Below are positions 2,281 through 63,994 of a stretch of 64,000 nt of DNA, piece after piece. The stretch lies in contig MHLM01000004.1 in assembly GCA_001821395.1 (NCBI GenBank), positions 64,001-128,000 of the forward strand, read 5' to 3'. Every line of letters starts with the position of its first letter. Within the stretch, counting starts at the first letter, position 1. This DNA comes from Candidatus Lloydbacteria bacterium RIFCSPHIGHO2_02_FULL_50_18. Its GTDB lineage: Bacteria; Patescibacteriota; Minisyncoccia; Phycocordibacterales; UBA6899. The notes under the pieces were generated by a model. That model was not told the origin of the DNA, ran no database searches, and worked only from the letters and a program-made list of their open reading frames with translations. Position numbers and translations under genes: made by a program.

Positions 2281-2377
2281 AAGGTGTTAAACCCCGGGGC
2301 AAGCCCTGGACTCGCAATCTGCTCGCAAAGCCTCGCGCGAGTCCGCGGCAGAGCCGCGGGGTATTAAACCTTTTTAG

Positions 2378-2445
2378 CTCTCCTCGGCACCACGGAGAGT
2401 ACTTCCATTTTTCTAAGTGGATGACCACTAAGAAAAATTGGTCGC
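2378..2445 (+). repeat. Repeat family R1, copy 1 (about 68 bp, contains a 14-bp hairpin ATTTTTCTAAGTGG/CCACTAAGAAAAAT)
   Basis: About 85% identical to 61781..61843, and in reverse orientation to 13304..13373. Confidence 0.7.
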
Positions 2446-3325: not shown

Positions 3326-3444
3326 TATTTTCGCGCCTCACTTTGTTGTAAGGCAGCGCACTTATGCCCCAGCGACTCGGTCAACATATATGAATATGTC
3401 TTCCTTGTCGCTTTCCCCGCGCCTCGTGATGCATCGAAAATATT
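3324..3444. repeat. Repeat family R2 copy 1 (core 3366..3428) bounded by a perfect 10-bp inverted repeat AATATTTTCG/CGAAAATATT
   Basis: The core is about 85% identical to 37514..37580. The flanking inverted repeat is specific to this locus. Confidence 0.6.
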
Positions 3445-3695
3445 CGAGAATATTTCCTGCATGGCTTCGCTCTTTATCCAAAATCTTAAAGAATGATACA
3501 TAGAACTTCAACCAACACTGACACTAGAGGACGCGTTGCGCCTCGTGATGTGACCAATTTTTCTCAGCGGTACTCCGCTTTAGAAAAATGAAATGCCCTC
3601 TGTGGTACATCAAAAATATTTCGGCCGGCATATTGACATAATCAGTTATTTTCATAGGATGAGTATTGGAAGAGTTTGAAAAGGAGAATTGACCA

Positions 3696-5268: not shown

Positions 5269-6933
5269 ATGGCAAAAGCGCACAAGTACATTTTCGTTGC
5301 AGGTGGGGTCATGAGCGGGGTGGGAAAGGGTGTCGCAACGTCTTCGATCGCACTTTTGCTTCAGGCGCGCGGGTTCAAGATCTCGCCCATAAAGATCGAT
5401 CCGTATCTGAACGTCGACGCGGGCACGATGAATCCCACTGAACACGGCGAAGTATTTGTCCTCAAGAGCGGACTCGAGACCGATCAAGACATGGGTTCCT
5501 ACGAACGTTTCTTGGGCAGAGACCTGAATACCGAGAACTATATGACGGGAGGACTCATTTACAAAACCGTTATCGACCGCGAGCGTGCACTCGGCTATGG
5601 AGGCCGCTGCGTTGAGCCGGTGCCGCACATCCCCGAAGAGGTGATCCGTCGTATTAAGGACGCAGGGGAGAAGGATAAGTCGGATATTACGATCGTTGAG
5701 ATCGGCGGCACGCTTGGAGAATATCAGAGCGTCATGTTCATCGAGGCGGCACGCACCTTGAAAATGGCGAATCCCGATGATGTGCTCTTTGTGCTTGTAA
5801 CCTATCTTCCTGTACCCGGCAAGCTGGGTGAAATGAAGACGAAGCCGACGCAGTATGCGGTACGCACAATGAATTCATACGGGGTGCAGCCGGATATCAT
5901 CATTGCCCGCGGTGAGGTGCCCGTTGATATGAAGCGTAAAGAGAAGATCGCGTCATCGTCGGGGATGCGCGTCGAGCAGGTCATTTCCGCGCCGGATGTC
6001 GATAGTGTGTATGATGTGCCGCTCAATTTTGAGGCGGATAATATCGCGACGATCGTCATGAAATTACTCAAGCTGAAGTCAAAGAAACCCGTCGATCTCG
6101 CTCCGTGGAAAGGCTTTGTGCGGAAGACAAAGAACACGAAGGGCGAAGTGCGTATCGGGATGGTGGGGAAATATTTTGCAACAGGCGATTTCGTTCTTGC
6201 CGACTCTTACCTCTCGGTCATTGAAGCGCTCAAGTATGCGGCATTTCATGCGGGAAAGAGGCCGGTCATCGACTGGATCGCTGCAACGGATTTTGAGGGA
6301 ACAAACGCGGCGAAGAATTGTGCAAAGCTTGCGCAGTATGACGGCATCGTTGTACCGGGAGGATTCGGCGCACGCGGTATTGAGGGTAAATTGAACGTCA
6401 TAAAATACGTGCGCACGCACAAGATCCCGTATTTCGGGCTTTGCTACGGTATGCAGCTTATGGTCGCAGAGTATGCGAGGAATGTCCTCGGACTGAAGGG
6501 GGCCATCACTACCGAGATCGATCCGAAGACGAAGTACCCCGTGGTCGCGGTCATGCCGGATCAGCAGGTGAAGCTCGATGCAGGTGACTATGGCGGCTCC
6601 ATGCGTCTCGGCTCGTACCCCGCTTATCTCAAGGAAGGAACCGTTGCACGCGGTGCATACAAAGCGGAGATGGTTCACGAGCGTCATCGTCATCGCTATG
6701 AAGTGAATCCGGAATACGTTGCTGCAATCGAAAAAGCAGGACTTGTTTTCTCGGGTATTTCGCCTGATGAAAAGTTGATGGAGATCGCCGAGCTTCCGAA
6801 GTTGAAGCATCCGTTCTTCCTTGGTACGCAATTCCACCCCGAGTTCACCGCACGACCGCTCACGTCACATCCGCTTTTTGATGCATTCATCAAGGCCTGC
6901 GTAAGCAGTCGGGCGACAAGCAAGAAGAAATAA
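5269..6933 (+). CDS. pyrG: CTP synthase
   Basis: N-terminal synthetase domain KYIFVAGGVMSGVGKG and C-terminal glutamine amidotransferase with GLCYGMQ. 554 aa. Confidence 0.95.
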   Translation: MAKAHKYIFVAGGVMSGVGKGVATSSIALLLQARGFKISPIKIDPYLNVDAGTMNPTEHGEVFVLKSGLETDQDMGSYERFLGRDLNTENYMTGGLIYKTVIDRERALGYGGRCVEPVPHIPEEVIRRIKDAGEKDKSDITIVEIGGTLGEYQSVMFIEAARTLKMANPDDVLFVLVTYLPVPGKLGEMKTKPTQYAVRTMNSYGVQPDIIIARGEVPVDMKRKEKIASSSGMRVEQVISAPDVDSVYDVPLNFEADNIATIVMKLLKLKSKKPVDLAPWKGFVRKTKNTKGEVRIGMVGKYFATGDFVLADSYLSVIEALKYAAFHAGKRPVIDWIAATDFEGTNAAKNCAKLAQYDGIVVPGGFGARGIEGKLNVIKYVRTHKIPYFGLCYGMQLMVAEYARNVLGLKGAITTEIDPKTKYPVVAVMPDQQVKLDAGDYGGSMRLGSYPAYLKEGTVARGAYKAEMVHERHRHRYEVNPEYVAAIEKAGLVFSGISPDEKLMEIAELPKLKHPFFLGTQFHPEFTARPLTSHPLFDAFIKACVSSRATSKKK

Positions 6934-7234: not shown

Positions 7235-9130
7235 ATGATTCAAGAGACCGCTCTTACTATTATGAAAACGGGGGCGAATGTATTCCTCACGGGGGAGCCC
7301 GGGAGCGGTAAAACGCATACCGTAAACGCATATATCCGCTACCTCCGCGAGCACAACGTCAATCCTTCGATCACTGCTTCAACGGGTATCGCCGCGACGC
7401 ACGTCGGCGGGATGACCATTCATTCATGGAGCGGTATCGGCATCAAGCGTGCGCTCACCGAATATGACCTCGATGCGCTGTCCTCGAACGAAGGACTTGT
7501 GAAGCGTATCGCCAATGCAAAGGTGCTTATCATCGATGAGATATCGATGCTCGACGGCAACACGCTGGTCATGGTGGAGGCGGTCACGCGAACGCTTCGT
7601 CGCAAGCACGAGCCTTTCGGCGGACTGCAGATAATTTTCGTCGGCGATTTCTTTCAGCTGCCTCCCATCGCGGACCGGGCAAGCGGTGTTCGTGCGCAGT
7701 TTTGTTTCGAATCAACAGCATGGCGAGTGGCGAATCCCATAGTGTGCTATCTCTCCGAGCAGCACCGTCAGGAAGACACCGCGTTTCTCTCTACGCTTGG
7801 CGCCATTCGCCGCGGAGAGCTCGAGGATAGCGTCTTTGAATATATCGGCGAGAGGCACGTGCTCCCAGGTGAGCATCCACACGACATTCCGCAGCTCTAT
7901 ACGCACAACATTGATGTCGACAAAAAGAATACGGAAGAGCTCGCAAAACTTGAAACGGAAGAAAAGGTCTTTCTCATGAGCACGAAGGGGACGAGCAATC
8001 GCGTGGAGCAGCTGATCAAGGGCTGTCTTTCACCCGAGGAACTGGTGTTGAAAGAAGGCGCATCGGTGATGTTCACCAAAAATAATTTTGAAAACGGCTA
8101 TGTGAACGGCACATTGGGGACGGTGGTGGGATTCGACGAGGACAATGGTTTTCCAATTGTTGAAACATCGGGCGGAGAAAATATTACCGCGCTTCCTTCC
8201 GAATGGGCCGTTGATGATTCTGGGAAAGTGCTCGCCACCATCACTCAGGTACCGCTCCGACTCGCGTGGGCTATTACCGTGCACAAGAGCCAGGGGATGA
8301 GCCTTGATGCCGCGACGATGGATCTCTCGCGCGCATTTGAATACGGGCAAGGGTATGTGGCACTCTCTCGTGTACGCGCATTCTCGGGATTGCACATCCT
8401 CGGCATCAATCAGCGCGCATTCGAGGTGCACCCTCTTGTGCTTGAGCGCGACCTCGCGTTTCACGAGCGTTCGGATGAAGCGGAGGCGGGGTTTCTCGAC
8501 ATGTCGGACGCCGACCTCCGGAAGTTACACGAGAACTTTTTACTCGCCATTGGAGGGAATCTGGCGAAAAAAGAAATCATTGCCAAGGCATTCGGTGTTC
8601 CAAAACTGAGTACGTATGAAGAAACGCTCGCGCTCCTCAGCCCCGGGATGACGCTCGCCGCGATTGCCAAGCGTCGGGACGTGACCGAGGGGACGATCGT
8701 GGGCCATATCGAAGAACTCGCGCTACTCGGAAAGCTCCCGTCGATAGACATCGCCGCCTTTGCCGAGCTTCCTGCGTCGGTGGTGAAGGAGATAACGCAA
8801 ACGATCGAGACGATCGGAGGAGAATTTCTCAAGCCGCTCTACCTTGAATTGGATGAACGTTATTCTTATGAAACGATCCGTCTTGTTCGATTCGGAGCGG
8901 GCATTGCTCCGAAGCAAAAAGACGCCGTCGTTGCGAAAAAAGAAAAGGTAAAAAAGGTGTCACATGAAAAACCCGCAAAGCTCGGAGCGAAGTGGGGAAA
9001 GGAAGAGGAAGAACGACTCACAAAAATGTTCAAAGAGGGAAAGAAGACGAAGGACATCGCACAGACACTTGAACGGCAGTCGGGGGGTATCCGTGCTCGT
9101 TTGAAGAAGCTGGGGCTGATAAAAAAATAG
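7235..9130 (+). CDS. PIF1/RecD-family ATP-dependent DNA helicase with C-terminal HTH-like domains
   Basis: Walker A GEPGSGKT, Walker B LIIDEISM, the QLPPI motif and VHKSQG. The C-terminal roughly 190 aa carry HTH-like segments. Confidence 0.75.
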   Translation: MIQETALTIMKTGANVFLTGEPGSGKTHTVNAYIRYLREHNVNPSITASTGIAATHVGGMTIHSWSGIGIKRALTEYDLDALSSNEGLVKRIANAKVLIIDEISMLDGNTLVMVEAVTRTLRRKHEPFGGLQIIFVGDFFQLPPIADRASGVRAQFCFESTAWRVANPIVCYLSEQHRQEDTAFLSTLGAIRRGELEDSVFEYIGERHVLPGEHPHDIPQLYTHNIDVDKKNTEELAKLETEEKVFLMSTKGTSNRVEQLIKGCLSPEELVLKEGASVMFTKNNFENGYVNGTLGTVVGFDEDNGFPIVETSGGENITALPSEWAVDDSGKVLATITQVPLRLAWAITVHKSQGMSLDAATMDLSRAFEYGQGYVALSRVRAFSGLHILGINQRAFEVHPLVLERDLAFHERSDEAEAGFLDMSDADLRKLHENFLLAIGGNLAKKEIIAKAFGVPKLSTYEETLALLSPGMTLAAIAKRRDVTEGTIVGHIEELALLGKLPSIDIAAFAELPASVVKEITQTIETIGGEFLKPLYLELDERYSYETIRLVRFGAGIAPKQKDAVVAKKEKVKKVSHEKPAKLGAKWGKEEEERLTKMFKEGKKTKDIAQTLERQSGGIRARLKKLGLIKK

Positions 9131-9184
9131 ACAAAAATTTGAAAGCGAGAGGTATTTGACAAGTGCGATAAACTACTGCAGGAT
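9070..9184 (+). repeat. 115-bp direct repeat, copy A (last 61 nt of the helicase CDS plus the downstream TTGACA-containing region)
   Basis: About 90% identical to 10906..11020. Contains TTGACA at 9156..9161. Confidence 0.8.
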
Positions 9185-9205
9185 TGACGGTAGACATACA
9201 TTTCA

Positions 9206-10831
9206 TTGAAAGAAAATATCATGAGAACAATCGGTTTTCTCAGAGCTTTCTTCTCCATCTTCAAGGAGATGCGCACCTCGTATCTCCCTCCGCTCATGGT
9301 ATACATGGCTGCGGGTGTTTCCGGGATTACTGCCATCGTTGGCACGTTCTACGTGAAGGAGCGACTCGGGCTTTCTGCGGAATTTCTGAGTGCGCTCGGT
9401 TTTTGGATTGGTTTGCCGTGGGTACTCAAGATGCCTATTGGTCACCTTGTCGATCTTCTGTGGCGGTGGAAAAGCGCATTCGTAATTCTCGGAGCAGGAT
9501 TGATTGCGTCGAGCCTCGGCATTATGGTCGGACTTCTTGGTTATACCGATGCGATGCGCGAAGTTGCCAGAGTGGAAGCGTGGTATGTCATCGCGGTTCT
9601 GCTTGCGCCGATCGGGTATGTGCTCCAAGATATCGTTGCGGATGCGATGACGGTCGAAGCAGTTCCGCGCATGAATCTTGACGGCACCGCGGTGAGCGAC
9701 GCCGATCTCAAGCTGATGCACACGACCATGCAGACACTTGGTCGCATTGCGATCATCGGCGGTGGTATCCTGGTATCTCTCGTAAATATCTTTCTGCTCA
9801 CTGGTGTTGGAGATCTTCCGCCGGCGGAAAAAGCGGCTACGTATCTTTTTGTATACCAGCTTGCCCTCGCCATCCCGATGATCTCAGTGCTCGGTGTCTT
9901 GCTTGCATCGGTGTTTCGTTGGAGTGACGTACGGACGCTCGTTGCGCAAGGAAAAACGAAAGCTGAGGCCCGGGCATTTCTCGATCGAGCATGTAAGGCT
10001 CCCGCGATAAACTGGGTGTTACTTGGTGGCGGGCTTGCGTTCGCAATTGCTGCCATTACGATCGGATTGAGCAAGATCGATGGAGGCCAGGAGATTGTTT
10101 TTGGTATCTCACTTCTTATCATTCTCTTCCTCATGAATCAACTCATGAAGGAGATCAGCAAGGAGGGTCGCAGGACGCTCATTGTCACGGCGCTCCTCAT
10201 TTTCGTCTATCGCGCGATGCCGGGAGTTGGACCGGGGATAGAGTGGTGGCAGATTGATGAATTGCACTTCGATCAGGAATTCTTTGCGAAGCTGTCATTC
10301 ATCGGCAGCACGCTCGTCCTCCTCGGGATGCTCGGTTTTCGTCGTTTTATTGCTGAGCGGTCTATGGCATATGTGCTCGGATTCCTGACGGTTGCGGGAA
10401 CGTTGCTGTCGCTTCCGACAATTGGCATGTATTACGGATTGCATGAGTGGACGGCCGCTATGACCGGAGGAGTCGTCGACGCACGCTTTATTGCGATCGT
10501 CGATACGGCAATTTCATCTCCTCTAGGGCAGGTCGCAATGATTCCCATGCTTGCGTGGATCGCAAACTCGGCACCGGAGCAGCTCAAGGCGACATTCTTT
10601 GCGGTCATGGCATCGTTTACGAACCTTGCACTCTCCGCGTCCAGCCTCGGAACGAAGTATTTGAATCAGGTCTTCGTGGTGACTCGTGAAGTGAGAGACG
10701 AAGCGACGAATGCCATCATTACACAGGCGAACTACGCTGAATTGGGAACCTTGCTCATCGTGGCAACCGCACTCGGATTCGTTGTGCCAATGCTTGCCGT
10801 TTGGCTTTTGCGAAAAAAGACCAGTTACTAA
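9206..10831 (+). CDS. Polytopic membrane transporter, possibly of the BT1/folate-biopterin (MFS-like) family
   Basis: About 12 predicted TMs. The family assignment is tentative. The start is ambiguous (TTG 9206 or ATG 9221). Confidence 0.45.
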   Translation: MKENIMRTIGFLRAFFSIFKEMRTSYLPPLMVYMAAGVSGITAIVGTFYVKERLGLSAEFLSALGFWIGLPWVLKMPIGHLVDLLWRWKSAFVILGAGLIASSLGIMVGLLGYTDAMREVARVEAWYVIAVLLAPIGYVLQDIVADAMTVEAVPRMNLDGTAVSDADLKLMHTTMQTLGRIAIIGGGILVSLVNIFLLTGVGDLPPAEKAATYLFVYQLALAIPMISVLGVLLASVFRWSDVRTLVAQGKTKAEARAFLDRACKAPAINWVLLGGGLAFAIAAITIGLSKIDGGQEIVFGISLLIILFLMNQLMKEISKEGRRTLIVTALLIFVYRAMPGVGPGIEWWQIDELHFDQEFFAKLSFIGSTLVLLGMLGFRRFIAERSMAYVLGFLTVAGTLLSLPTIGMYYGLHEWTAAMTGGVVDARFIAIVDTAISSPLGQVAMIPMLAWIANSAPEQLKATFFAVMASFTNLALSASSLGTKYLNQVFVVTREVRDEATNAIITQANYAELGTLLIVATALGFVVPMLAVWLLRKKTSY

Positions 10832-10905: not shown

Positions 10906-11020
10906 TGAACGCCAGTCGGGAGGTATTCGCTCTCGTTTGAAAAAGCTGGGGCTGATAAAAAAAAGACATACATTTGAAGGCAAGGAGGTATTTGACAAGT
11001 GCGATAAACTACTGCAGGAT
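10906..11020 (+). repeat. 115-bp direct repeat, copy B (contains an out-of-context fragment of the helicase C-terminal coding sequence)
   Basis: Translates to QSGGIRSRLKKLGLIKK, which matches the helicase tail. TTGACA at 10992..10997. Confidence 0.8.
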
Positions 11021-12941: not shown

Positions 12942-13012
12942 TGCGGGTTCGTCTAATGGTAGGACATCGCCCTCTGGAGGCGAGTATTGGGGTTCGAGTC
13001 CCTGACCCGCAG
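12942..13012 (+). tRNA. tRNA-Gln (anticodon CTG)
   Basis: U1:A72 acceptor stem TGCGGGT/ACCCGCA, D-arm GTCT..GGAC, anticodon stem TCGCC/GGCGA with loop CTCTGGA, T-loop TTCGAGT, and discriminator G. CCA is not encoded. Confidence 0.8.
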
Positions 13013-13018
13013 CAAATG

Positions 13019-13046
13019 AAAACACCCCTTTTAATGGGGGTGTTTT
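13019..13046 (+). terminator. Hairpin terminator after tRNA-Gln
   Basis: AAAACACCCC-ttttaa-TGGGGGTGTTTT. Confidence 0.6.
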
Positions 13047-13060
13047 CATTTGCGAGGAGA

Positions 13061-13082
13061 GGAAGCCATCTGCATGGCTTCC
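13061..13082. repeat. 22-bp perfect palindrome GGAAGCCATCTGCATGGCTTCC, copy 1, embedded in an inverted copy of the tRNA-Gln 3' half
   Basis: Identical 22-mer at 61685..61706. Flanked by TTTGCG and GGCAGGGACTCGAA, which match the reverse complement of the tRNA-Gln T-arm and acceptor 3' strand. Confidence 0.8.
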
Positions 13083-13165
13083 GGCAGGGACTCGAAGCCG
13101 TTCTCCCATATTTTCGAGACATTCTTATGTTGAGAAAATAGGAAACGGGTACTGACGCAGTAGGC

Positions 13166-13189
13166 GTCGAGATTCCCTGACCCGCAGCA
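13166..13189 (+). repeat. Direct repeat of the tRNA-Gln 3' end (16 nt exact: TCCCTGACCCGCAGCA), att-like
   Basis: Identical to 12999..13014. Located 160 bp downstream of the tRNA. Confidence 0.8.
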
Positions 13190-13236
13190 GCCGCACAAAA
13201 CCACTCTGTATGGAGTGGTTTTGTTTTGCGGTTGCT

Positions 13237-13255
13237 CGCGGGTCAGGGACTCGAA
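13237..13255 (-). repeat. Inverted copy of the tRNA-Gln 3' end (CGCGGGTCAGGGACTCGAA), forming a roughly 35-bp imperfect hairpin with 13174..13209
   Basis: Reverse complement of TTCGAGTCCCTGACCCGCG. Confidence 0.75.
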
Positions 13256-13303
13256 AGACGGAGGCGGTCTACGCCGCCACTTTCCTAAGTGCGGTGTCGC
13301 CGA

Positions 13304-13373
13304 GCGACATTGTTTTCTTATGAGTAAGCGAGTTAGAAAACAAGAAGTACTCTTGTGGTGCCGGGGTCGAGAG
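13304..13373 (-). repeat. Repeat family R1, copy 3 (reverse orientation), flanked by a 9-bp inverted repeat CCTAAGTGC/GCACTTAGG
   Basis: The reverse complement aligns with 2378..2445: TTTTCTTA..TTAGAAAA..AAGTACTCT..GTGGTGCCG. Confidence 0.65.
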
Positions 13374-13547
13374 CACTTAGGCTTTTGGCTGCCTTGCGCC
13401 AAAATATTTAGTGACTCGTGATCAAGTTTGACCCGTAGACATGTCGTGCTCTTATGATGCGCGTTCTTTTTTAAAAAATATTTTGAGAACAAAAAGAAGC
13501 CTATTTTGTGGTTAAAAAAACCGCAAGCCTTTACTTGCGGTGATATT

Positions 13548-29181: not shown

Positions 29182-29644
29182 AACAGATCTCCTTAATGGT
29201 GAACAACGTTGAACTCTGCCCCATTGTTTATCACCTCTCTATTCCCGTGTCAAACGTTATGGCAAAATAAGCCGTACGATGTCCGGATAAATGAATGACG
29301 CTTTACGAGTAAATTATTGGCGCGTACCATTGTCTCTATGTTATCATCATTTTTGTCGTGGGGGGGGGCTCGATGGCGACGCAAAGATCGCTCAGTGGAA
29401 AAAACAGGTGGAAGGATTTATGCCTATCATTTCCGGCGCACGCATGGAAGAGGATTATCTCAATTTTGCTTTTCTGCAAAAAATCAGCACTCCCGCATCG
29501 GGAAAAGCATCTGCATAGCGGTTTCGGTCGGTATGTACTCGGTCATTTTAGTTGCATAATGAGTGCGCGCAAGTGCCTTCTTGCTTGGAATTGGCCGAAT
29601 GGGGTGGTACAGTTAACCCGTAGTTAATTACATAATAAAAAGAT

Positions 29645-29980
29645 ATGGCAGCAAAAAAAGTAGCAGCAAAAAAGGCAGTCGCTAAAAAAGCAGTAGCAAA
29701 AAAGGCGGTCGCAAAGAAACCTGCAGCAAAAAAGGTCAATTCCGCATTTATGAAACCAATGACGATCAGCGCCGAGCTTGCTCTTGTCGTCGGAAAAGGT
29801 CCGATGCCTCGTTCAGAGGTCGTGAAGAAGCTCTGGGTTTATATCAAGAAGCATGATCTTCAGGATGCAAAAAATAAGCGCAATATCAACGGCGATGCGG
29901 CATTGGTTGCGGTATTCGGCGGAAAGAAGACCGTCAACATGTTTGAAATGACGAAGCTTGTGTCGAAACATCTTTCATAA
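29645..29980 (+). CDS. SWIB/MDM2-domain protein with an N-terminal Lys/Ala-rich histone-H1-like tail
   Basis: AAKKAVAKK repeats followed by ...ELALVVGKGPMPRSEVVKKLWVYIKKHDLQDAKNKRNINGD...MFEMTKLVSKHL. Confidence 0.75.
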   Translation: MAAKKVAAKKAVAKKAVAKKAVAKKPAAKKVNSAFMKPMTISAELALVVGKGPMPRSEVVKKLWVYIKKHDLQDAKNKRNINGDAALVAVFGGKKTVNMFEMTKLVSKHLS

Positions 29981-37470: not shown

Positions 37471-37475
37471 AATTT

Positions 37476-37599
37476 AAATTCAGTTCACTACCCCTATCTG
37501 CTTTGTTGCGGGGGCCCCTGCGACGCGGTCACCATATAAGAATATGTTTTCCTTGCCGCTTTCCCCGCGCCTCGCGTATAGGGGCATTGAACTGAATTT
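37476..37599. repeat. Repeat family R2 copy 2 (core 37514..37580) enclosed by a 22-bp inverted repeat AAATTCAGTTCACTACCCCTAT/ATAGGGGCATTGAACTGAATTT
   Basis: The core is about 85% identical to 3366..3428. The flanking inverted repeat (20 of 22 bp) differs in sequence from the one at copy 1. Confidence 0.6.
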
Positions 37600-37671
37600 A
37601 TGATAGATTATAGCGTATTTTTTAGTATTCCACTTCTCCATCGGGTAAAAATCCATGTATAATGCCATCCT

Positions 37672-61383: not shown

Positions 61384-61551
61384 GTACTCTATTCAACAAG
61401 AAATCGTGCACATAGACAAGGCCATGACCGCCCGTTCGCATAAAGTGCACGCATCAGGGAACCCCTTTGCTTTTTGTGGGGTTTTTGTTATATTCTTCAG
61501 GTACGCTTCTCGGTGAAACGTACAAGGTATTCTTAGTTAGAATATTTTTAT

Positions 61552-61626
61552 TCCGGTGTAGCTCAGTGGTAGAGCAGTGCGCTGTTAACGCATTGGTCGC
61601 AGGTTCGAATCCTGCCGCCGGAGCCA
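61552..61626 (+). tRNA. tRNA-Asn (anticodon GTT), CCA encoded
   Basis: U1:A72 acceptor stem TCCGGTG/CGCCGGA, anticodon loop CTGTTAA, T-loop TTCGAAT and a 3' CCA. Confidence 0.85.
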
Positions 61627-61639
61627 ACAAATTTCGTGG

Positions 61640-61668
61640 AAAAGACCCGTATGGGGTCTTTTTCTTTT
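61640..61668 (+). terminator. Hairpin terminator after tRNA-Asn
   Basis: GACCC-gtat-GGGGTC followed by TTTTTCTTTT. Confidence 0.65.
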
Positions 61669-61669
61669 G

Positions 61670-61719
61670 TTGGCTCCGGGCGGAGGAAGCCATCTGCATG
61701 GCTTCCGAAAGGATTCGAA
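61670..61719. repeat. Inverted copy of the tRNA-Asn 3' half interrupted by palindrome GGAAGCCATCTGCATGGCTTCC (61685..61706)
   Basis: TTGGCTCCGGGCGG and AGGATTCGAA match the reverse complement of the tRNA 3' strand. The insert is flanked by AGGA on both sides. Confidence 0.8.
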
Positions 61720-61780
61720 AAGCTTGGTGTTGTTTTGTCTTCAAAACCACCAAGGTGTACCGTCCATGTAATGGAAGAAA

Positions 61781-61843
61781 CTCCTGCACCACAAGAGTAC
61801 TTCATTTTTCTAAGACGGAGTACCATTAAGAAAAATTGGTCGC
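61781..61843 (+). repeat. Repeat family R1, copy 2
   Basis: About 85% identical to 2378..2445. Confidence 0.7.
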
Positions 61844-61854
61844 CGCCGGAGCCA
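61842..61854 (+). repeat. Direct repeat of the tRNA-Asn 3' end (GCCGCCGGAGCCA, 13 nt exact), att-like, abutting R1
   Basis: Identical to 61614..61626. Confidence 0.75.
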
Positions 61855-61958
61855 GAGAATGACCACTATAAATAGTGGTCATTGTTGTGTGTGGAGGATT
61901 CAAACTTTCAGAATATTTGATATAATTTGATAGTTACTATTCTCAATTTTTTAATGAC

Positions 61959-63557
61959 ATGAAAAAATACATATCCATAGCTTTCATTATTGTTGTGGTT
62001 ATTGGTGTTTTTTTATTTTTTCTTGGTAGTTCTACCAACAATAATCTCATTGGAGATAGCGTTAGGATGACCCGCTTACTCGTCAATGGGGTACCTTCGA
62101 GCGGTGGTTTTGTGAATGTGACTTATTTGGAAAGTGAGGAAAAATATCCTGTGATAAATATTGCGGTGGACTTAAACAAAGACGGTGTTATCAAGTCTTA
62201 CGAGGTTGATGGGGGTATTCAGGAAGAATGGCTTGTCACGAATATGTATGCCCAAGTGGTTGGTGGGTCAAAAAATAATTACTCTATTTCTATAAAAGAC
62301 ACAAAACTTGATAGTAAAACTGACCTGCCGGTGTATGTAGTCTTAAGTGAAAATGAGATAAAAGACTGGTCTGGTGAAAAAGTTTCCGGAGGTATATATA
62401 AAGAAATTTTATTATCCAAAATAGATACAATGGATTATGGATCACTGTATGCTCCGGATCCGGAAGGTGAGCGGGCCGGTGGGTCACCATTGGGTTCTGT
62501 TCTGTCCAATAAGGTTTTTGCATATGATGCCGTTAATGAATACAGGACAGATGTTCCTGACATTGATCAGGGGTACAACGAGTGTGTCCCCACGTCCATC
62601 GCCAATTCACTTTTATGGTTAGCTGATAAATATAAGTTTCTCGATAAATTGCCAAAGGGGGGTGATAAAGATTTAATCGCTGAGCTTAAGAGTGACTTAA
62701 AATGGACAAAGTATGGTGTTTTGCATAAAGACATTGTTCCCGGAATAAAAACTTTTATTAAGAGACATAAACTCTTGTTGGAAGCGCATCAAATAGGAGA
62801 AATTAGAGACGACGAAATCATGGCTAAAATAGCGGGGGAGCTTAAAAGGGGACAGGATGTTGAGGGTTGGCTGGAATATCGAGGATATTTTAAAAATGAT
62901 TCCTATCTGCGTAAGGGTGCTCACGTGGTTACGGTGGTTGGTGTTTGGACAAGTCCTCAAGGCACAAAATTTATCGGGTTAAATGATCCTCTGTCTCAAG
63001 GGGGTCATGCGACAGATATTTATGAACTCAGTGGAGTGCAGGTTCTCGATTATGCTTTTCAGGGTGATTATGAGACATATCTCATTTCCGCTTTTGCTGA
63101 GTCACCCATTTCTGAAGAGGAGGTTATGCCGTCTGTTACCATAGATAATTCAAGTATTAAATTAATAAAAGAAACTCATCCTTCCGGTGGAACCACGCGC
63201 ACTTGTTTGGTCACATTGTCAGGAACAGCTACCGGACCGGAGTGCAGTTATGTAACGCTTCAGGGTGGCAAACCTGGCACTGGGTCTACGATGGATATGA
63301 ATGGGGCGGAAAGTTGCCCAGATTGGTCATATTGGGGTACGAGTGGATTTTGTGTTCGTCATCTTAAGCAAAATAATACTACAGCATGGAGTGTTACTTT
63401 TGAGGCTTCTACGTATTGGGGTAAAACTGATTTAGATTTTAGTATAATGTTGGGGGCACCAAAACTGCCTCTCGAAGATCTTTATGGAGGAAATGTTTGT
63501 GCCTCAACTGAAACAGATCAAAAAATATACGATACAATATCTTTGGAGTGTAAGTAA
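61959..63557 (+). CDS. Secreted protein with a predicted papain-like (C39-like) cysteine peptidase domain, in an AT-rich island-like context
   Basis: Signal anchor. YNECVPTSIANSLLWL Cys motif and a GAHVVTVVGV His motif. Visibly lower G+C than the neighbouring genes. Confidence 0.45.
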   Translation: MKKYISIAFIIVVVIGVFLFFLGSSTNNNLIGDSVRMTRLLVNGVPSSGGFVNVTYLESEEKYPVINIAVDLNKDGVIKSYEVDGGIQEEWLVTNMYAQVVGGSKNNYSISIKDTKLDSKTDLPVYVVLSENEIKDWSGEKVSGGIYKEILLSKIDTMDYGSLYAPDPEGERAGGSPLGSVLSNKVFAYDAVNEYRTDVPDIDQGYNECVPTSIANSLLWLADKYKFLDKLPKGGDKDLIAELKSDLKWTKYGVLHKDIVPGIKTFIKRHKLLLEAHQIGEIRDDEIMAKIAGELKRGQDVEGWLEYRGYFKNDSYLRKGAHVVTVVGVWTSPQGTKFIGLNDPLSQGGHATDIYELSGVQVLDYAFQGDYETYLISAFAESPISEEEVMPSVTIDNSSIKLIKETHPSGGTTRTCLVTLSGTATGPECSYVTLQGGKPGTGSTMDMNGAESCPDWSYWGTSGFCVRHLKQNNTTAWSVTFEASTYWGKTDLDFSIMLGAPKLPLEDLYGGNVCASTETDQKIYDTISLECK

Positions 63558-63799
63558 TGTATAGCGGATAGAATTCCTTGAAGAACCGGACCTATTTGAA
63601 TAAAAGCAAAAGAAAAACACCGCGTTGAGGATGTTTTTCTTTTGTTGATGCTTCGTGCAGCGAGCGGAGCTCGCTGGCTGGAACCGAACACCGGAGTATA
63701 AATTTTCAGCAGAAAATATTACGAGGCGGTGCGCAGACCAAAATGTTGCGACGGCAATATTTTGCGTCGCAGGAGAAATTCCTGCCGCCGGAGTCTTTC

Positions 63800-63994
63800 T
63801 TACGGACTGCACCGTAACTTATCACGGTAGATAATGGAGACGAGAGCAAAGCTCAAAATAAGCAGAAGGAACCACGAACCGATCTTATGAAGTGAGACAA
63901 GGTGCCAGTACTCCAACTGATTTGGGTAGAGCCAAATGTGGGTAAGAGTACCGATATTTTCCGCTATCCAAACAAATAGCGCTGTCAAAAACAC
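63800..63994 (-). CDS. Hypothetical membrane protein, possibly truncated by the window end
   Basis: Hydrophobic ORF at the window edge. Confidence 0.2.
   Translation of the reverse strand: MFLTALFVWIAENIGTLTHIWLYPNQLEYWHLVSLHKIGSWFLLLILSFALVSIIYRDKLRCSP

What the first reader, a model, noticed from the sequence alone, without database searches (positions are those of the whole stretch)
61552..61854. tRNA-Asn locus repeats the tRNA-Gln architecture
The same order of elements as at tRNA-Gln appears 48.6 kb away at a different tRNA: terminator, then an inverted 3'-half mimic containing the 22-bp palindrome, then R1 ending exactly at a 13-nt direct repeat of the tRNA 3' end. This parallelism argues for a specific mechanism, such as a tRNA-3'-end-targeting integrative or miniature element whose conserved arm is R1, rather than coincidence. 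The R1 copy after prfB (2378..2445) may be a solo copy.
Basis: seen in the sequence. Interest (0 to 1): 0.7.

Follow-up and report, generated by a model that had tools for sequence, protein, structure and literature searches.

The report
Stacked mini-insertions behind tRNA genes
Behind tRNA-Asn (and tRNA-Gln and tRNA-Asp) this Lloydbacteria genome carries stacked gene-less modules of about 170 bp, each with a spare tRNA tail, a terminator and a mirror-image copy of that tail, and a separate 56-base hairpin repeat (R1) sits inside one of them; I found both elements across Patescibacteria and no description of either.

Summary
The sequence features are real and non-random. They comprise tRNA-Asn, a terminator, an inverted copy of the tRNA 3' part split by a 22-nt hairpin, R1, and a direct repeat (DR) of the tRNA end.

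- R1 is not the element's arm. It is an independent 56-nt hairpin repeat (CACCAC..AGAGTACTTC-hairpin-GGTCG) with no target duplication. It is multi-copy across Patescibacteria, and an orthologous empty site exists. At tRNA-Asn it interrupts a 17-nt DR.
- The real unit is a 172-175-bp module: tRNA 3' end, terminator, inverted copy, hairpin-rich body, displaced old 3' end. Modules are stacked: two at tRNA-Gln, and three at tRNA-Asn, one carrying a low-GC 532-aa ORF.
- The pattern is general. Of 58 tRNAs in the fetched genome loci (nearly all in R1-bearing Patescibacteria loci), 25 have such copies downstream and none upstream. The inverted copy ends at T54 of the T loop in about 23 of 25 cases.

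Related Lloydbacteria differ at the same tRNAs by presence or absence of whole modules.

Best reading: non-autonomous insertion modules exchanged inside tRNA genes, plus a separate miniature hairpin element. No enzyme was identified. Neither element matched Rfam, IMG/VR or the literature I searched.

The parts
61552..61626 (+). tRNA-Asn (GTT) with encoded CCA. T54 = 61604, T stem 3' strand 61611-61615, acceptor 3' strand 61616-61622.
   Evidence: ARAGORN; Rfam tRNA 73.7 bits.
61638..61664 (+). Terminator 1 of module E1. An A tract, G+C hairpin and T tract make it look bidirectional. It is the centre of a long palindrome.
   Evidence: Terminator-like hit; inverted-repeat arms 61610-61631 / 61666-61687 (I17).
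61666..61684 (+). Inverted copy, part A: complement of the trailer, CCA, discriminator and acceptor 3' strand (TTTGTTGGCTCCGGGCGGA).
   Evidence: I17; read directly from the sequence.
61685..61706 (+). 22-nt hairpin GGAAGCCATCTGCATGGCTTCC, inserted at the acceptor/T-stem junction of the inverted copy. The identical 22-mer occurs at tRNA-Gln. A variant shorter by one base pair occurs at tRNA-Asp of the same contig.
   Evidence: The junction position was read from the sequences shown.
61710..61719 (+). Inverted copy, part B: AGGATTCGAA, the complement of tRNA nt 54-63. It ends exactly opposite T54.
   Evidence: boundary at T54 in 15 of 25 tRNAs, within 3 nt in 23 of 25.
61720..61781 (+). Body of E1 (class b): hairpin CTTGGTG..CACCAAGG, then GTGTAC, then a small hairpin with a GTAA loop, then a degenerate T-loop remnant GAAAC.
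   Evidence: The same motifs occur in L059, L044, L279, L113 and the Gln E1 unit.
61782..61786 (+). Direct repeat, left part (TCCTG). This is the displaced old tRNA 3' end.
   Evidence: R1 removal restores a 17-nt exact repeat.
61787..61842 (+). R1b: a 56-nt hairpin repeat CACCAC..AGAGTACTTC-hairpin-GGTCG. It is a secondary insertion inside the direct repeat, with no target duplication.
   Evidence: nhmmer E=1.3e-17.
61843..61854 (+). Direct repeat, right part (CCGCCGGAGCCA).
61858..61883 (+). Terminator 2, which follows the displaced 3' end. A degenerate inverted copy GTGGAGGATTCAAAC follows at about 61890-61904 and overlaps a promoter-like site at 61899-61926.
   Evidence: sequence.
61959..63557 (+). 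ORF of 532 aa, the cargo of the second unit E2. It has no Pfam family. G+C is 0.36-0.44 here against about 0.50-0.55 in neighbouring genes.
63570..63592 (+). Degenerate copy of the tRNA-Asn 3' part (AGAATTCCTTGAAGAACCGGACC). It closes E2 and opens E3.
   Evidence: Read from the sequence. Weak; by eye only.
63607..63644 (.). Terminator 3, belonging to unit E3.
63645..63689 (+). Inverted copy of E3: TTGATGCTTCG, then hairpin GCAGCGAGCGGAGCTCGCTGGC, then TGGAACCGAAC. It is degenerate.
   Evidence: Sequence. The layout matches L077, L033 and L111.
63690..63765 (+). Body of E3 (class c). It starts with the ACCGGAG motif and contains ATTTTCAGCAGAAAAT. It resembles the tRNA-Met element of L077.
63766..63793 (+). 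Third partial tRNA-Asn copy (GTCGCAGGAGAAATTCCTGCCGCCGGAG), 23 of 28 nt identical. The T loop is mutated and the stem is kept. It abuts the DUF817 gene.
   Evidence: D13; (14-nt exact match at +2153).
12942..13013 (+). tRNA-Gln (CTG), the parallel locus. T54 = 12993.
13014..13189 (+). Gln unit E1 (175-bp offset). It comprises terminator 13014-13051, inverted copy part A 13052-13060, the 22-nt hairpin 13061-13082, part B CAGGGACTCGAA 13085-13096 ending at T54, the body, and the 16-nt repeat 13174-13189.
   Evidence: The unit is absent from the orthologous locus L281.
13190..13439 (+). Gln unit E2 (class a). It comprises terminator 13194-13229, an 18/18 inverted copy 13238-13255, the body AAGACGGAGGCGG..GTCGCCGAG..GGGGTCGAGAGCACTTAGG..TTAGTGACTCGTGAT, and a degenerate repeat 13422-13439. 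It is orthologous to the single element of L281.
   Evidence: I21; nhmmer 13255-13422, E=3e-8.
13305..13360 (-). R1d, inserted in the body of Gln E2. The site is empty in L281 (GCCGAG^TCGGGG).
   Evidence: E=5.7e-16.
2388..2444 (+). R1a, a solo copy between prfB and ftsE.
   Evidence: E=3.5e-17.
3551..3607 (-). R1c, a solo and more diverged copy between ftsE and a small membrane-protein ORF. It is antisense to both.
   Evidence: E=9.4e-12.

Best explanation
SHOWN. The region is an array of small, gene-poor insertion modules sitting in the 3' part of a tRNA gene. I call them T-elements. Each module supplies five things:
- a replacement tRNA 3' end, running from within or just after the T loop to the 3' end;
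- its own bidirectional terminator;
- an inverted copy of that same tRNA segment, which stops at T54 and often carries an extra hairpin exactly at the acceptor/T-stem junction;
- a hairpin-rich body of 60-150 nt, belonging to one of a few classes conserved across Patescibacteria;
- at its far end, the displaced previous 3' end of the tRNA, which is the direct repeat.

New modules enter next to the tRNA and push older ones outward. This gives E1+E2 at tRNA-Gln and E1+E2(ORF532)+E3 at tRNA-Asn.

R1 is a different, smaller element of 56 nt. It has an invariant 5' tail, a covarying hairpin and a GGTCG 3' end. It inserts without target duplication and has landed inside the direct repeat of Asn E1.

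INFERRED.
- Modules are gained and lost by strand exchange inside the tRNA gene, mostly in the T loop and sometimes in the D loop.
- They are non-autonomous, so the enzyme acts in trans.
- Their size of 172-175 bp, their wall-to-wall hairpins, a hairpin placed just before each right end, and the lack of target duplication all point to a single-stranded, hairpin-folded intermediate.
- Candidate chemistries are HUH-type nicking, as in the IS91 and IS200/IS605 families (the T loop contains the IS91-family target GTTC), or a folded att site of the CTX-phage or integron attC kind.
- Homology-guided replacement after natural transformation can then spread a module to the same tRNA in relatives.

NOT SHOWN. 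The enzyme, the intermediate, and whether the modules also act as RNA.
For: Anatomy and statistics of the two window loci:
- Searches give the layout and the chance estimates.
- The module offsets are 172 bp (Asn, with R1 removed) and 175 bp (Gln), derived from the coordinates.

Generality:
- Of 54 tRNAs in R1-bearing Patescibacteria loci, 25 have an inverted copy of at least 10 nt and 17 a direct copy of at least 10 nt of the 3' part within 700 nt downstream. Upstream controls gave 0 and 1.
- At 12 nt or more, 25 of 58 tRNAs have a copy downstream and none upstream.
- Copies of the tRNA 5' end occur only upstream, in 6 of 58.

Sharp breakpoint:
- The inverted copy ends at T54 in 15 of 25 cases, 1 nt further in 5, and 2-3 nt further in 3. 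That is what a fixed boundary plus chance extension gives.
- It is followed by a conserved (A)GNCGGAGG motif.

Presence or absence at orthologous loci:
- L281 (TspO 84% identical) has tRNA-Gln followed by one class-a module. It matches window E2 including the trailer and terminator, and lacks both E1 and R1d.
- L284 and L285 have neither module.
- In L281 the repeat keeps the CCAGG T-stem strand seen in L284's tRNA, while L281's working tRNA has CCTAG. This fits the repeat being the displaced older end.
- L286 (DUF817 91% identical) has a different 150-nt module and different cargo between tRNA-Asn and DUF817.
- L279 has a ~215-nt insertion on the 5' side of tRNA-Asn that the window lacks.

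Same genome:
- tRNA-Asp shows terminator, inverted copy with a one-pair-shorter version of the same hairpin, R1 and a repeat.
- tRNA-Thr(cgt) has a 54-nt displaced copy followed by its own terminator and inverted copy.

R1 as a separate element:
- 67 full copies were found in Patescibacteria or unclassified 'bacterium' MAGs, sometimes head-to-tail.
- At least 7 compensatory stem variants exist.
- There is no orientation bias relative to neighbouring ORFs.
- Copies are 53-58 nt, end in GTCG in 57 of 59, and follow a G in 28 of 59.
- An orthologous empty site exists.

IS91-family properties used for comparison come from PMC13181058: no target duplication, a GTTC/CTTG target, a subterminal hairpin next to the cleavage site, single-stranded circles, and capture of adjacent DNA.
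Against: - No integrase, transposase, HUH nuclease or reverse transcriptase was found in the 64-kb window.
- None appeared among the 25 most frequent Pfam families reported for 103 ORFs beside such tRNAs in 19 loci. Only LAGLIDADG (two ORFs) was listed there; rarer families were not listed. A GIY-YIG ORF beside a tRNA was found separately.
- Gain cannot be told from precise loss with two or three taxa. Deletion between the flanking repeats would give the same picture for E1.
- The body motifs and the R1 tail are conserved from Saccharibacteria to Parcubacteria. The whole module always folds more stably on the tRNA-sense strand. Both would also fit a function as RNA.
- The extra hairpin at the acceptor/T junction is not predicted by a simple copy mechanism.
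- The elements are absent from IMG/VR, so no free or phage-borne form was seen.
- R1's enrichment near tRNA and release-factor genes could reflect function rather than insertion preference.
- The sample of loci was selected for containing R1.
Confidence: 0.55

Rival explanations
1. One reading: one composite miniature integrative element whose conserved arm is R1, inserted by a tyrosine or serine recombinase whose attP is R1 plus the tRNA end.
For: - At tRNA-Asn and tRNA-Asp of this genome the order is terminator, inverted copy with the hairpin, R1 on the tRNA strand, then the repeat.
- 25 of 67 R1 copies lie within 500 nt of a tRNA, almost always on its 3' side.
Against: - Gln E1 has no R1.
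- R1 occupies a different position in every module and occurs on either strand.
- Solo copies are common.
- The orthologous module in L281 lacks R1.
- Removing R1 restores a continuous 17-nt repeat.
- Most modules in other genomes have no R1 inside.
- No recombinase was found.
Confidence: 0.07
2. The modules are genes for tRNA-like structured RNAs. On the tRNA-sense strand the inverted copy acts as an acceptor 5' strand plus a T-stem 5' strand, and the repeat acts as the T-stem 3' strand plus the acceptor 3' strand. Together they would form a 12-17-bp acceptor/T minihelix closing a junction of hairpins. The RNA would be released by RNase P and 3' processing from read-through transcripts. R1 would likewise be a functional RNA or a protein-binding motif.
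For: - The sense strand folds 5-11 kcal/mol better than the antisense strand in 5 of 5 modules, as a three-way junction closed by the pairing of inverted copy and repeat.
- The extra hairpin sits where the D and anticodon domain leaves a real tRNA.
- Body motifs are conserved across classes of Patescibacteria.
- The orthologous E2 and L281 element are about as conserved as coding DNA.
Against: - Where the copies differ, the inverted copy matches the tRNA on its left, including the trailer, and not the repeat on its right (L089 Gly, window Gln).
- Repeats of older units decay (13422-13439, 63570-63592), so the closing helix is not maintained.
- The inverted copy is the complement of the 3' strand rather than a copy of the 5' strand. 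At tRNA-Gln it reads CAGGG, not TGGGG.
- A terminator stands between the tRNA and the module, and no promoter is conserved.
- No Rfam family matches.
- R1 has no orientation bias relative to genes.
Confidence: 0.15
3. There is no dedicated mobility. The pattern would be a mutational by-product at highly transcribed tRNA genes. Fold-back or template switching at the terminator hairpin would extend the palindrome into the tRNA. Slippage would make tandem partial duplications. Short-homology recombination after natural transformation would shuffle them.
For: - The left copy, terminator and inverted copy form one long near-perfect palindrome centred on the terminator loop.
- Window E2's inverted copy is 18/18 to the window's own tRNA-Gln, although the orthologous element in L281 matches a different stem only loosely. 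This suggests local re-copying.
- Some 5' copies look like plain tandem duplications that include upstream flank (L106, L064).
- A TfoX competence-regulator domain protein is encoded next to tRNA-Gln.
Against: - It does not explain the homologous bodies, conserved across phyla, found at tRNAs of ten or more identities.
- It does not explain the same genome-specific hairpin at the same junction in three loci.
- It does not explain the fixed T54 boundary followed by a conserved motif.
- It does not explain modules of near-identical size (172 and 175 bp).
Confidence: 0.12
4. These are classical integrase scars. Each unit would be what is left (attL plus attR arms, roughly an attP) after deletion of the interior of a normal tRNA-integrating island or prophage, with no further mobility of the remnant.
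For: - Flanking partial tRNA copies, stacking with the newest unit next to the tRNA, and low-GC cargo (ORF532) are the hallmarks of tRNA-integrating islands. Tycheposons are an example (bioRxiv 10.1101/2020.12.28.424599).
- Unit size of 150-240 bp is close to that of a lambda-type attP (own knowledge).
- The tRNA-Asn to DUF817 interval is hypervariable.
Against: - No integrase or integrase fragment was found in any of about 25 loci.
- Units of the same class and nearly the same length recur at many tRNAs and phyla, which independent deletions would not produce.
- An inverted copy of the target up to T54 is not a feature of known attP sites.
- None of the motifs occurs in IMG/VR contigs.
Confidence: 0.15

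Closest known systems
tRNA-integrating genomic islands and satellites (tyrosine-integrase elements; tycheposons of Prochlorococcus)
   Same: - The insert sits in the 3' part of a tRNA gene.
- The gene is kept intact by element-borne sequence.
- A partial tRNA copy is left at the far end.
- Successive arrivals stack and push older ones outward.
- Cargo is variable and compositionally foreign (for tycheposons; here).
   Different: - Units here are 150-240 bp and gene-less.
- No integrase was found anywhere nearby.
- Each unit carries a terminator and an inverted copy of the target that ends at T54.
- The same body classes serve many tRNA identities.
- Mirror-image units occur on the 5' side.
HUH single-strand transposons (IS91/ISCR, IS200/IS605) and their miniature or solo derivatives (REP/BIME with RAYT, PATE)
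   Same: - There is no target duplication.
- A hairpin lies a few nucleotides before the 3' end.
- The insertion context resembles the element's own 3' end (head-to-tail R1 copies; G or CG before R1).
- The elements are intergenic, multi-copy and found in either orientation.
- The IS91-family target GTTC is present in the T loop.
- IS91-type one-ended transposition captures adjacent DNA (PMC13181058; here).
   Different: - No HUH transposase was identified.
- R1 has a single hairpin and an invariant 17-nt 5' tail conserved across phyla, whereas REPs are usually genus-specific (own knowledge).
- The REP hallmark 5' GTAG is absent.
- The modules carry target-specific sequence in two orientations.
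Folded single-strand recombination sites (CTX phage attP(+) hairpin used by XerCD; integron attC)
   Same: - An inverted copy of the target lies next to the left junction, so that a single strand folds into a duplex that mimics the target.
- The integrated order predicted for such a mechanism is target copy, loop, inverted copy, body, target copy. That is the order seen here.
- There is an extrahelical feature on one arm.
The properties of these systems are from my own knowledge and were not tested here.
   Different: - The inverted copy lacks the T-stem 5' strand, so a complete symmetric core site is not formed.
- The target is a tRNA gene, not dif or attI.
- No Xer or IntI dependence is known.
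- The arms differ for every tRNA.
tRNA-like RNAs (tmRNA, Y-RNA-like YrlA, viral tRNA-like 3' structures)
   Same: On the sense strand a module can close with a helix identical to the acceptor/T minihelix of the neighbouring tRNA, with hairpins emerging at the junction.
   Different: - No tmRNA or Rfam hit.
- There is no T loop.
- The closing helix decays in older units.
- The helix differs for each tRNA.

Membership tests
tRNA-integrating integrase elements (genomic islands, prophages, tycheposons) | Insert flanked by a direct repeat of a tRNA 3' segment, with an intact tRNA at one end | tested here: met
   13/17-nt (Asn) and 16-nt (Gln) repeats; none that long in 2000 shuffles. 25 of 58 tRNAs have copies downstream and none upstream.
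tRNA-integrating integrase elements (genomic islands, prophages, tycheposons) | Tyrosine or serine recombinase encoded in the element or adjacent to it | tested here: not met
   None among about 45 window ORFs. None among the 25 most frequent Pfam families for 103 ORFs beside such tRNAs or the ORFs tested. The rest of the genome was not searched.
tRNA-integrating integrase elements (genomic islands, prophages, tycheposons) | Presence/absence polymorphism at the same tRNA, with the newest unit next to the tRNA | tested here: met
   L281, L284 and the window at tRNA-Gln; L286 and the window at tRNA-Asn. The polarity, gain or loss, is inferred.
tRNA-integrating integrase elements (genomic islands, prophages, tycheposons) | Excised circular form or attP junction | not testable with these tools
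   Needs reads or PCR. No free form was seen in IMG/VR.
MITE (miniature inverted-repeat transposable element) | Terminal inverted repeats and a target-site duplication | tested here: not met
   R1 has no terminal inverted repeats and no duplication. The junctions are TCCTG^CCGCC (Asn) and CCGA^CTCGG in R1 orientation (the GCCGAG^TCGGGG site of L281). The modules' 'repeats' are copies of the target, not of the element.
HUH single-strand transposons (IS91, IS200/IS605) and derivatives | No target duplication; subterminal hairpin next to the 3' cleavage site | tested here: met
   R1 is a hairpin followed by (T)GGTCG in 57 of 59 copies. Class-a modules are hairpin P3 followed by GTGACC.
HUH single-strand transposons (IS91, IS200/IS605) and derivatives | Short specific target related to the element's terminal tetranucleotide | tested here: inconclusive
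   G precedes R1 in 28 of 59 copies (background 0.21) and CG in 12 of 59. GTCG is the commonest 4-mer (5 of 59), partly because of tandem copies. GTTC is present in the T loop, but repeats start anywhere from nt 54 to 64.
HUH single-strand transposons (IS91, IS200/IS605) and derivatives | Y1 or Y2 HUH transposase present in the genome | tested here: not met
   Not found in the window or in the flanking ORFs sampled. The full genome was not available.
REP/BIME | Short imperfect palindrome, intergenic, multi-copy, either orientation, sometimes tandem | tested here: met
REP/BIME | Conserved 5' GT[AG]G and an associated RAYT gene; family restricted to close relatives | tested here: not met
   The R1 5' end is CACCAC. 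The copies span Saccharibacteria to Parcubacteria. RAYT was not searched genome-wide.
Folded single-strand att sites (CTX phage, integron attC) | Two inverted target-like arms able to fold into a duplex containing the whole core site | tested here: inconclusive
   The arms pair from T54 to the terminator. The T-stem 5' strand is not included, except at tRNA-Asp.
Known RNA families (Rfam 15), tmRNA | Match to a covariance model | tested here: not met
   Only the tRNAs reach threshold. Nothing credible appears at E values up to 10 over 61540-61960 or L029 3600-4080. ARAGORN finds no tmRNA.

The most novel reading that the evidence does not exclude
T-elements and R1 would be two related families of non-autonomous, hairpin-folded single-strand mobile elements. 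They would be specific to Patescibacteria and would parasitise tRNA genes. A trans-acting nuclease or recombinase would cut in the T loop at or near G53^T54 or after GTTC. The element would arrive with, or copy from the target, a replacement tRNA tail plus its mirror image, so the essential gene survives every insertion. That would be a previously undescribed way of colonising tRNA genes and a source of the hypervariable tRNA-linked islands in these reduced genomes. A variant of the same reading is that the modules are additionally expressed as tRNA-acceptor mimics.
Probability: 0.3. Interest if true: 0.85.

Novelty: new variant of a known kind. Interest (0 to 1): 0.7.

Why it matters
Patescibacteria (CPR) make up a large share of bacterial diversity. 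They have tiny genomes and few recognised mobile elements.

If confirmed, these ~170-bp modules and the 56-nt R1 repeat would matter in four ways:
- They would show that tRNA genes in these lineages act as docking sites where gene-less units and small cargo, such as the low-GC 532-aa ORF, are stacked and exchanged.
- The exact T54 breakpoint and the hairpin at the acceptor/T junction are testable clues to an enzyme that reads tRNA-gene structure.
- R1's invariant 17-nt tail gives a simple lineage-wide marker and a bait for finding its partner protein.
- Practically, both elements explain assembly breaks and hypervariable intervals next to tRNAs in CPR genome bins.

Tried and rejected
1. Known RNA family. 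Rfam at gathering threshold on the whole window, and at E values up to 10 on 61540-61960 and on L029 3600-4080, returned only tRNAs.
2. Phage or plasmid origin. The R1 pattern and two module motifs were scanned in IMG/VR. Only chance matches in coding regions were found.
3. Metagenome scan. I loosened the hairpin to GGAAGCCATNNNNATGGCTTCC. This was a wasted scan; the exact 22-mer should have been used.
4. R1 as a small ORF. The reverse-strand ATG frames are not conserved between copies (by eye). Rejected.
5. R1 as a 3' or 5' UTR element. There is no orientation bias relative to neighbouring ORFs: 18 same/same, 12 opposite/opposite, 9 and 9 mixed. Rejected as the sole explanation.
6. RNAalifold on the MAFFT alignment of 49 R1 copies predicted nothing, because indels misalign the stem. 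It was replaced by an anchored pairing table. No covariance model was built.
7. The Logan contigs that break inside tRNA-Asn break in the D arm, which is shared with other tRNAs. They say nothing about the element.
8. Recombinase or transposase search. Pfam on about 45 window ORFs, on selected neighbours, and a census of 103 ORFs next to module-bearing tRNAs found only LAGLIDADG and GIY-YIG homing-endonuclease genes, at a few tRNAs.
9. Literature. Searches for CPR intergenic repeats or non-coding RNAs, tRNA-linked miniature elements, and the motif strings themselves found nothing relevant.
10. Reverse-transcriptase stop at a modified base as the cause of the T54 boundary. Rejected because the inverted copy includes the trailer and terminator, so the template was gene or precursor sequence, and because m1A58 would stop copying earlier (own knowledge).
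Full report
SOURCE. The window is part of contig MHLI01000005.1 of the genome bin GCA_001818945.1, named Candidatus Lloydbacteria bacterium RIFCSPHIGHO2_01_FULL_49_22. This is a member of the Patescibacteria (CPR). Identical sequence occurs in a 176-kb ENA contig.

CHECK OF THE OBSERVATION.
- ARAGORN and Rfam place tRNA-Asn(GTT) at 61552-61626 and tRNA-Gln(CTG) at 12942-13013.
- Downstream of tRNA-Asn there is a terminator-like hairpin at 61638-61664.
- It is flanked by a long inverted repeat whose left arm is the tRNA's own 3' end plus trailer (arms 61610-61631 / 61666-61687).
- The right arm continues as AGGATTCGAA (61710-61719), the complement of tRNA nt 54-63.
- The two parts of the right arm are separated by the 22-nt hairpin GGAAGCCATCTGCATGGCTTCC (61685-61706).
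- That 22-mer occurs exactly twice in the window, the other copy being at the same relative position behind tRNA-Gln (13061-13082). None is expected by chance.
- A 13-nt copy of the tRNA-Asn end lies 215 nt downstream. A 16-nt copy of the tRNA-Gln end lies 160 nt downstream. In 2000 shuffles the longest direct match was 11 nt.
- So the features are real and non-random.

TWO DETAILS ARE WRONG.
- First, R1 does not merely abut the repeat. Deleting the 56 nt at 61787-61842 restores TCCTGCCGCCGGAGCCA, 17 nt identical to the tRNA and preceded by a degenerate T-loop remnant. R1 therefore interrupts the repeat.
- Second, the Gln repeat is not preceded by R1. A profile of R1 finds exactly four copies in the window: 2386-2445 +, 3551-3608 -, 13304-13362 -, and 61785-61843 +.
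- The Gln-locus copy lies on the opposite strand inside a second unit further downstream.

WHAT R1 IS.
- A scan of one genome per species with GAGTACTTCN{1,3}TTTTCTAA returned 116 loci before hitting its limit.
- The 67 hits with the full R1 signature were all in bins labelled Parcubacteria, Saccharibacteria, Lloyd-, Taylor-, Kaiser- or Zambryskibacteria, Patescibacteria, or unclassified 'bacterium'. The hits in other phyla lacked the flanks and lay in coding sequence.
- R1 is 53-58 nt long.
- It has a nearly invariant 5' tail, CACCAC..AGAGTACTTC.
- It has a hairpin whose base covaries: AT/AT, TTG/CAA, G/C, TGG/CCA, GAT/ATC, AAT/ATT and AAG/CTT. The apical part ranges from a 4-nt loop to an inner stem.
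- Its 3' end is GTCG in 57 of 59 copies.
- Copies can be head-to-tail (L111, L054, L010).
- Relative to neighbouring ORFs there is no orientation preference.
- R1 has no Rfam match and none in IMG/VR. I found no mention in the literature, including searches for the motif strings.
- It is enriched near tRNA genes. 25 of 67 copies lie within 500 nt of a tRNA, almost always on its 3' side, in either orientation. The R1-bearing loci hold 52 tRNAs in 445 kb.
- It is also enriched near release-factor and ftsEX genes, in 6 of about 60 loci.

THE REAL UNIT. Annotated maps of 15 tRNA loci show a recurrent module, which I call a T-element:
1. a copy of the tRNA 3' part, which in the first unit is the working end of the tRNA;
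2. a terminator with an A tract and a T tract;
3. the inverted copy of the tRNA 3' part and trailer;
4. a body of 60-150 nt made of hairpins;
5. a direct repeat of the tRNA 3' part.

BODY CLASSES.
- Class a is AAGACGGAGGCGG..GTCGCCGAGTCGGGGTCGAGAGTACTTAGG..CTTAGTAACTCGTGACC. A profile finds it in 11 loci, including window 13255-13422.
- Class b is a hairpin, then GGTGTAC, then a small hairpin with a GTAA-type loop. It occurs in Asn E1, Gln E1, L044, L059, L113 and L279.
- Class c is ..CGGAG..ATTTTCAGNAGAAAAT.. and occurs in window 63690-63765 and L077.

STACKING IN THE WINDOW.
- tRNA-Gln carries E1 (13014-13189) and then E2 (13190-13439).
- tRNA-Asn carries E1 (61627-61854), then E2, then E3.
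- Asn E2 starts with terminator 61858-61883 and a degenerate inverted copy. It carries a 532-aa ORF with no Pfam family in DNA of 36-44% G+C, against about 50-55% nearby.
- Asn E3 (about 63600-63793) ends in the 28-nt partial tRNA copy noted by the repeat finder (D13).
- The offset between the tRNA and its first repeat is 175 bp at Gln. It is 172 bp at Asn once R1 is removed.

GENERALITY AND DIRECTIONALITY.
- Of 54 tRNAs in the R1-bearing loci, 25 have an exact inverted copy of at least 10 nt and 17 an exact direct copy of at least 10 nt of the last 30 nt within 700 nt downstream. The same search upstream gave 0 and 1.
- With a 12-nt threshold over whole loci, 25 of 58 tRNAs score downstream and none upstream.
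- Copies of the tRNA 5' start occur only upstream, in 6 of 58 tRNAs.
- The tRNAs involved include His, Leu, Gln, Ile, Thr, Met, Gly, Arg, Lys, Ser, Val, Pro, Asp, Phe and Asn.
- The loci were selected for containing R1, which is a bias. However, loci fetched through neighbouring proteins show the same thing (L281 and L286).

A SHARP BREAKPOINT.
- The far end of the inverted copy falls opposite T54 in 15 of 25 tRNAs, one base further in 5, and two or three further in 3. This is the distribution expected for a fixed boundary plus chance matches.
- It is followed by a conserved (A)GNCGGAGG motif.
- The start of the direct repeat is less fixed, ranging from nt 54 to 64 with modes at C56 and nt 60.
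- When the inverted copy carries an extra hairpin of 20-23 nt, the hairpin lies between the complements of nt 66 and 65. That is the acceptor/T-stem junction.
- The hairpin is seen in Asn E1, Gln E1, window E3, L111, L077, L033, L088, and the tRNA-Asp and tRNA-Thr loci of this genome. Its sequence differs between genomes, but its pairing and position do not.

PRESENCE AND ABSENCE IN RELATIVES.
- L281 (neighbour TspO 84% identical) has tRNA-Gln followed by a single class-a module. Its trailer, terminator and body align with window E2.
- Relative to L281, the window has 175 extra bp (E1) between the tRNA body and the old 3' end. It also has the 56-nt R1d inside GCCGAG^TCGGGG.
- L284 and L285 (TspO 82% identical) have neither module.
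- In L281 the repeat retains CCAGG, the T-stem strand of L284's tRNA, whereas L281's working tRNA has CCTAG. This is as expected if the repeat is the displaced older end.
- L286 (DUF817 91% identical) has a different 150-nt module with a 15-nt repeat at +149, and 1.3 kb of different ORFs between tRNA-Asn and DUF817.
- L279 (hydrolase 90% identical) has a ~215-nt class-b insertion on the 5' side of tRNA-Asn. It is flanked by TTCCGGTGTAGC and is absent from the window.
- Gain cannot formally be told from precise loss. Either way, whole modules bounded by the tRNA repeats are the unit of change.

OTHER tRNAs OF THE SAME GENOME. Ten kb to the left of the window, on the same contig (L406/L407), lie five more tRNAs.
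- tRNA-Asp repeats the Asn layout: terminator, inverted copy, the hairpin GGAAGCATCTGCATGCTTCC (the window 22-mer minus one C:G pair), an 18/18 complement of the whole T arm, an R1 variant with a different compensated stem, and a 9-nt repeat.
- tRNA-Thr(cgt) has a 54-nt displaced copy (nt ~22-75) 193 nt downstream. That copy is followed by its own terminator, inverted copy with hairpin, and a boundary at T54. This tRNA also has a 19-nt 5' copy upstream.
- So three of seven tRNAs seen in this genome carry the same genome-specific hairpin.
- Six R1 copies occur in about 84 kb. Three of them are inside modules, each at a different place.

HOW IT MOST LIKELY WORKS.
Shown:
- Modules are discrete units.
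- They are bounded by tRNA-derived repeats.
- They are stacked, with the best-preserved repeat next to the tRNA.
- They vary between relatives.
- R1 is a separate insertion without target duplication.

Inferred:
- Exchange happens inside the tRNA gene, in the T loop or D loop.
- The incoming DNA carries the replacement end, so the tRNA stays functional.
- A double-stranded circle of 172-175 bp is physically unlikely (own knowledge). Every part of a module is a hairpin, each right end is preceded by a hairpin, and R1 and the modules lack target duplications.
- I therefore favour a single-stranded, folded intermediate handled by a trans-acting enzyme.
- Two known chemistries fit parts of the picture:
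  - One is HUH nicking as in the IS91 family. Its properties are a GTTC/CTTG target, no duplication, a subterminal hairpin at the cleavage site, single-strand circles, and capture of adjacent DNA up to the next target-like site (PMC13181058). The T loop contains GTTC, and class-a modules end in GTGACC directly before the nt-57 position of the repeat.
  - The other is a folded att site as in CTX phage or integron attC (own knowledge). That would predict the order seen here: target, loop, inverted target, body, target.
- A run-off fold-back copy primed from the terminator hairpin on a strand nicked at G53^T54 would explain the exact T54 boundary.
- Homology-guided replacement after natural transformation, using the tRNA and the repeat as arms, could spread a module among relatives. 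A TfoX-domain gene sits next to tRNA-Gln.
- None of these steps is demonstrated. No candidate enzyme was found in the window or beside 19 loci. Only LAGLIDADG and GIY-YIG homing-endonuclease genes turned up, at a few tRNAs.

RIVALS. Each is detailed in its own section.
- The main alternative is that the modules are tRNA-like RNAs.
  - For it: the sense strand always folds better (-57.7/-46.5, -62.4/-52.2, -76.4/-71.8, -62.4/-53.2 and -57.3/-48.1 kcal/mol). The extra hairpin sits where the D and anticodon domain leaves a tRNA. The body motifs are conserved across phyla.
  - Against it: the inverted copy matches the left copy and trailer rather than the repeat. Old repeats decay. It is the complement of the 3' strand rather than a copy of the 5' strand. 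A terminator precedes it.
- A purely mutational origin does not explain homologous bodies at many tRNAs.
- Plain integrase scars do not explain the uniform size, the inverted copy, or the absence of any integrase remnant.

COMPARISON AND NOVELTY.
- The closest known kind is the tRNA-integrating island, including the stacking and partial tRNAs described for tycheposons. The defining integrase was looked for and not found, and the units are two orders of magnitude smaller.
- R1 behaves like a REP or miniature HUH-type element, but it lacks their defining marks and is conserved far more widely.
- I rate the finding a new variant of a known kind.
- I give it a 0.3 chance of being a distinct class: single-strand mini-elements that target the T loop and carry or copy a replacement tRNA tail.

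Noticed in passing
window 37475-37600 and 3366-3426: A 61-nt sequence (GCCCC.GCGAC.CGGTCA.CATATA.GAATATGT.TTCCTTG.CGCTTTCCCCGCGCCTCG) occurs twice at 90% identity (D2). The copy at 37514-37574 is bracketed by 23-nt inverted repeats TAAATTCAGTTCACTACCCCTAT / ATAGGGGCATTGAACTGAATTTA (I9), which makes it look like a small MITE-like element. The other copy lies about 125 nt from R1c.
   Followed up: no
window 9070-9219 and 10906-11020: The 3' end and downstream spacer of the PIF1-helicase gene (7235-9130) are repeated after the BT1 transporter gene. One stretch is 58 nt at 90% identity and another is 36 nt at 100% (D3 and D8; Pfam).
   Followed up: no
window 2281-2387: Between the prfB stop codon and R1a lies a G+C-rich nested palindrome of about 100 nt (AAAGGTGTTAAACCCCGGGG...CCGCGGGGTATTAAACCTTT). 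It has an inner GGACTCGC..GCGAGTCC pair. It may be another hairpin element.
   Followed up: no
L279 1-350 (Logan SRR22388057): A relative whose hydrolase is 90% identical carries a ~215-nt class-b-like insertion on the 5' side of tRNA-Asn. It is flanked by a 12-nt repeat of the tRNA 5' end plus a degenerate D arm. The window lacks it. Copies of tRNA 5' ends upstream occur in 6 of 58 tRNAs.
   Followed up: partly
L063 about 6130-6480; L077 44-721: Homing-endonuclease genes sit at tRNAs that have partial copies. A GIY-YIG ORF (E=1.3e-11) lies between a split pseudo-5' fragment of tRNA-Thr and the intact tRNA-Thr. A LAGLIDADG ORF (E=3.4e-17) lies directly after the tRNA-Met module. The Pfam census found LAGLIDADG in two ORFs.
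   Followed up: partly
L096, L109, L063, L078, L064 and window 2388-2444: R1 recurs around release-factor and ftsE/ftsX genes in distant Patescibacteria. It lies between prfB and ftsE in the window (sense) and in L109 (antisense), just after a release-factor gene in L063, and upstream of one in L096 and L078. Translation genes (EF-Tu, EF-Ts, S2, IF-2) are also frequent neighbours.
   Followed up: partly
L111 6440-6547: A class-a module contains an extra unit GAGAGTACTTAG..CTTAGTAACTCGTGACC inserted right after ..TGTGACC. The 5' strand of this hairpin (GAGAGTACTT) resembles the R1 tail (AAGAGTACTT). This suggests that R1 and the last hairpin of class-a bodies are related.
   Followed up: no
window 61899-61926: The only sigma-70-like promoter match in 61400-63900 is TTCAAA-16-TATAAT with an upstream TG. 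It lies 33 nt before the 532-aa ORF, and its -35 box overlaps the degenerate inverted tRNA copy of unit E2.
   Followed up: no
window 29638-29735: Lysine- and alanine-rich 15-nt tandem repeats (AAAAAAGGCAGTCGC-like) lie inside the ORF at 29645-29980. This looks like a histone-H1-like or KAAK-repeat protein (D1).
   Followed up: no
L001 6150-6208 (just beyond the right end of the window): A further R1 copy (E=4e-17, minus strand in the locus) lies about 220 nt upstream of the DUF817 gene start, on the side away from tRNA-Asn.
   Followed up: no
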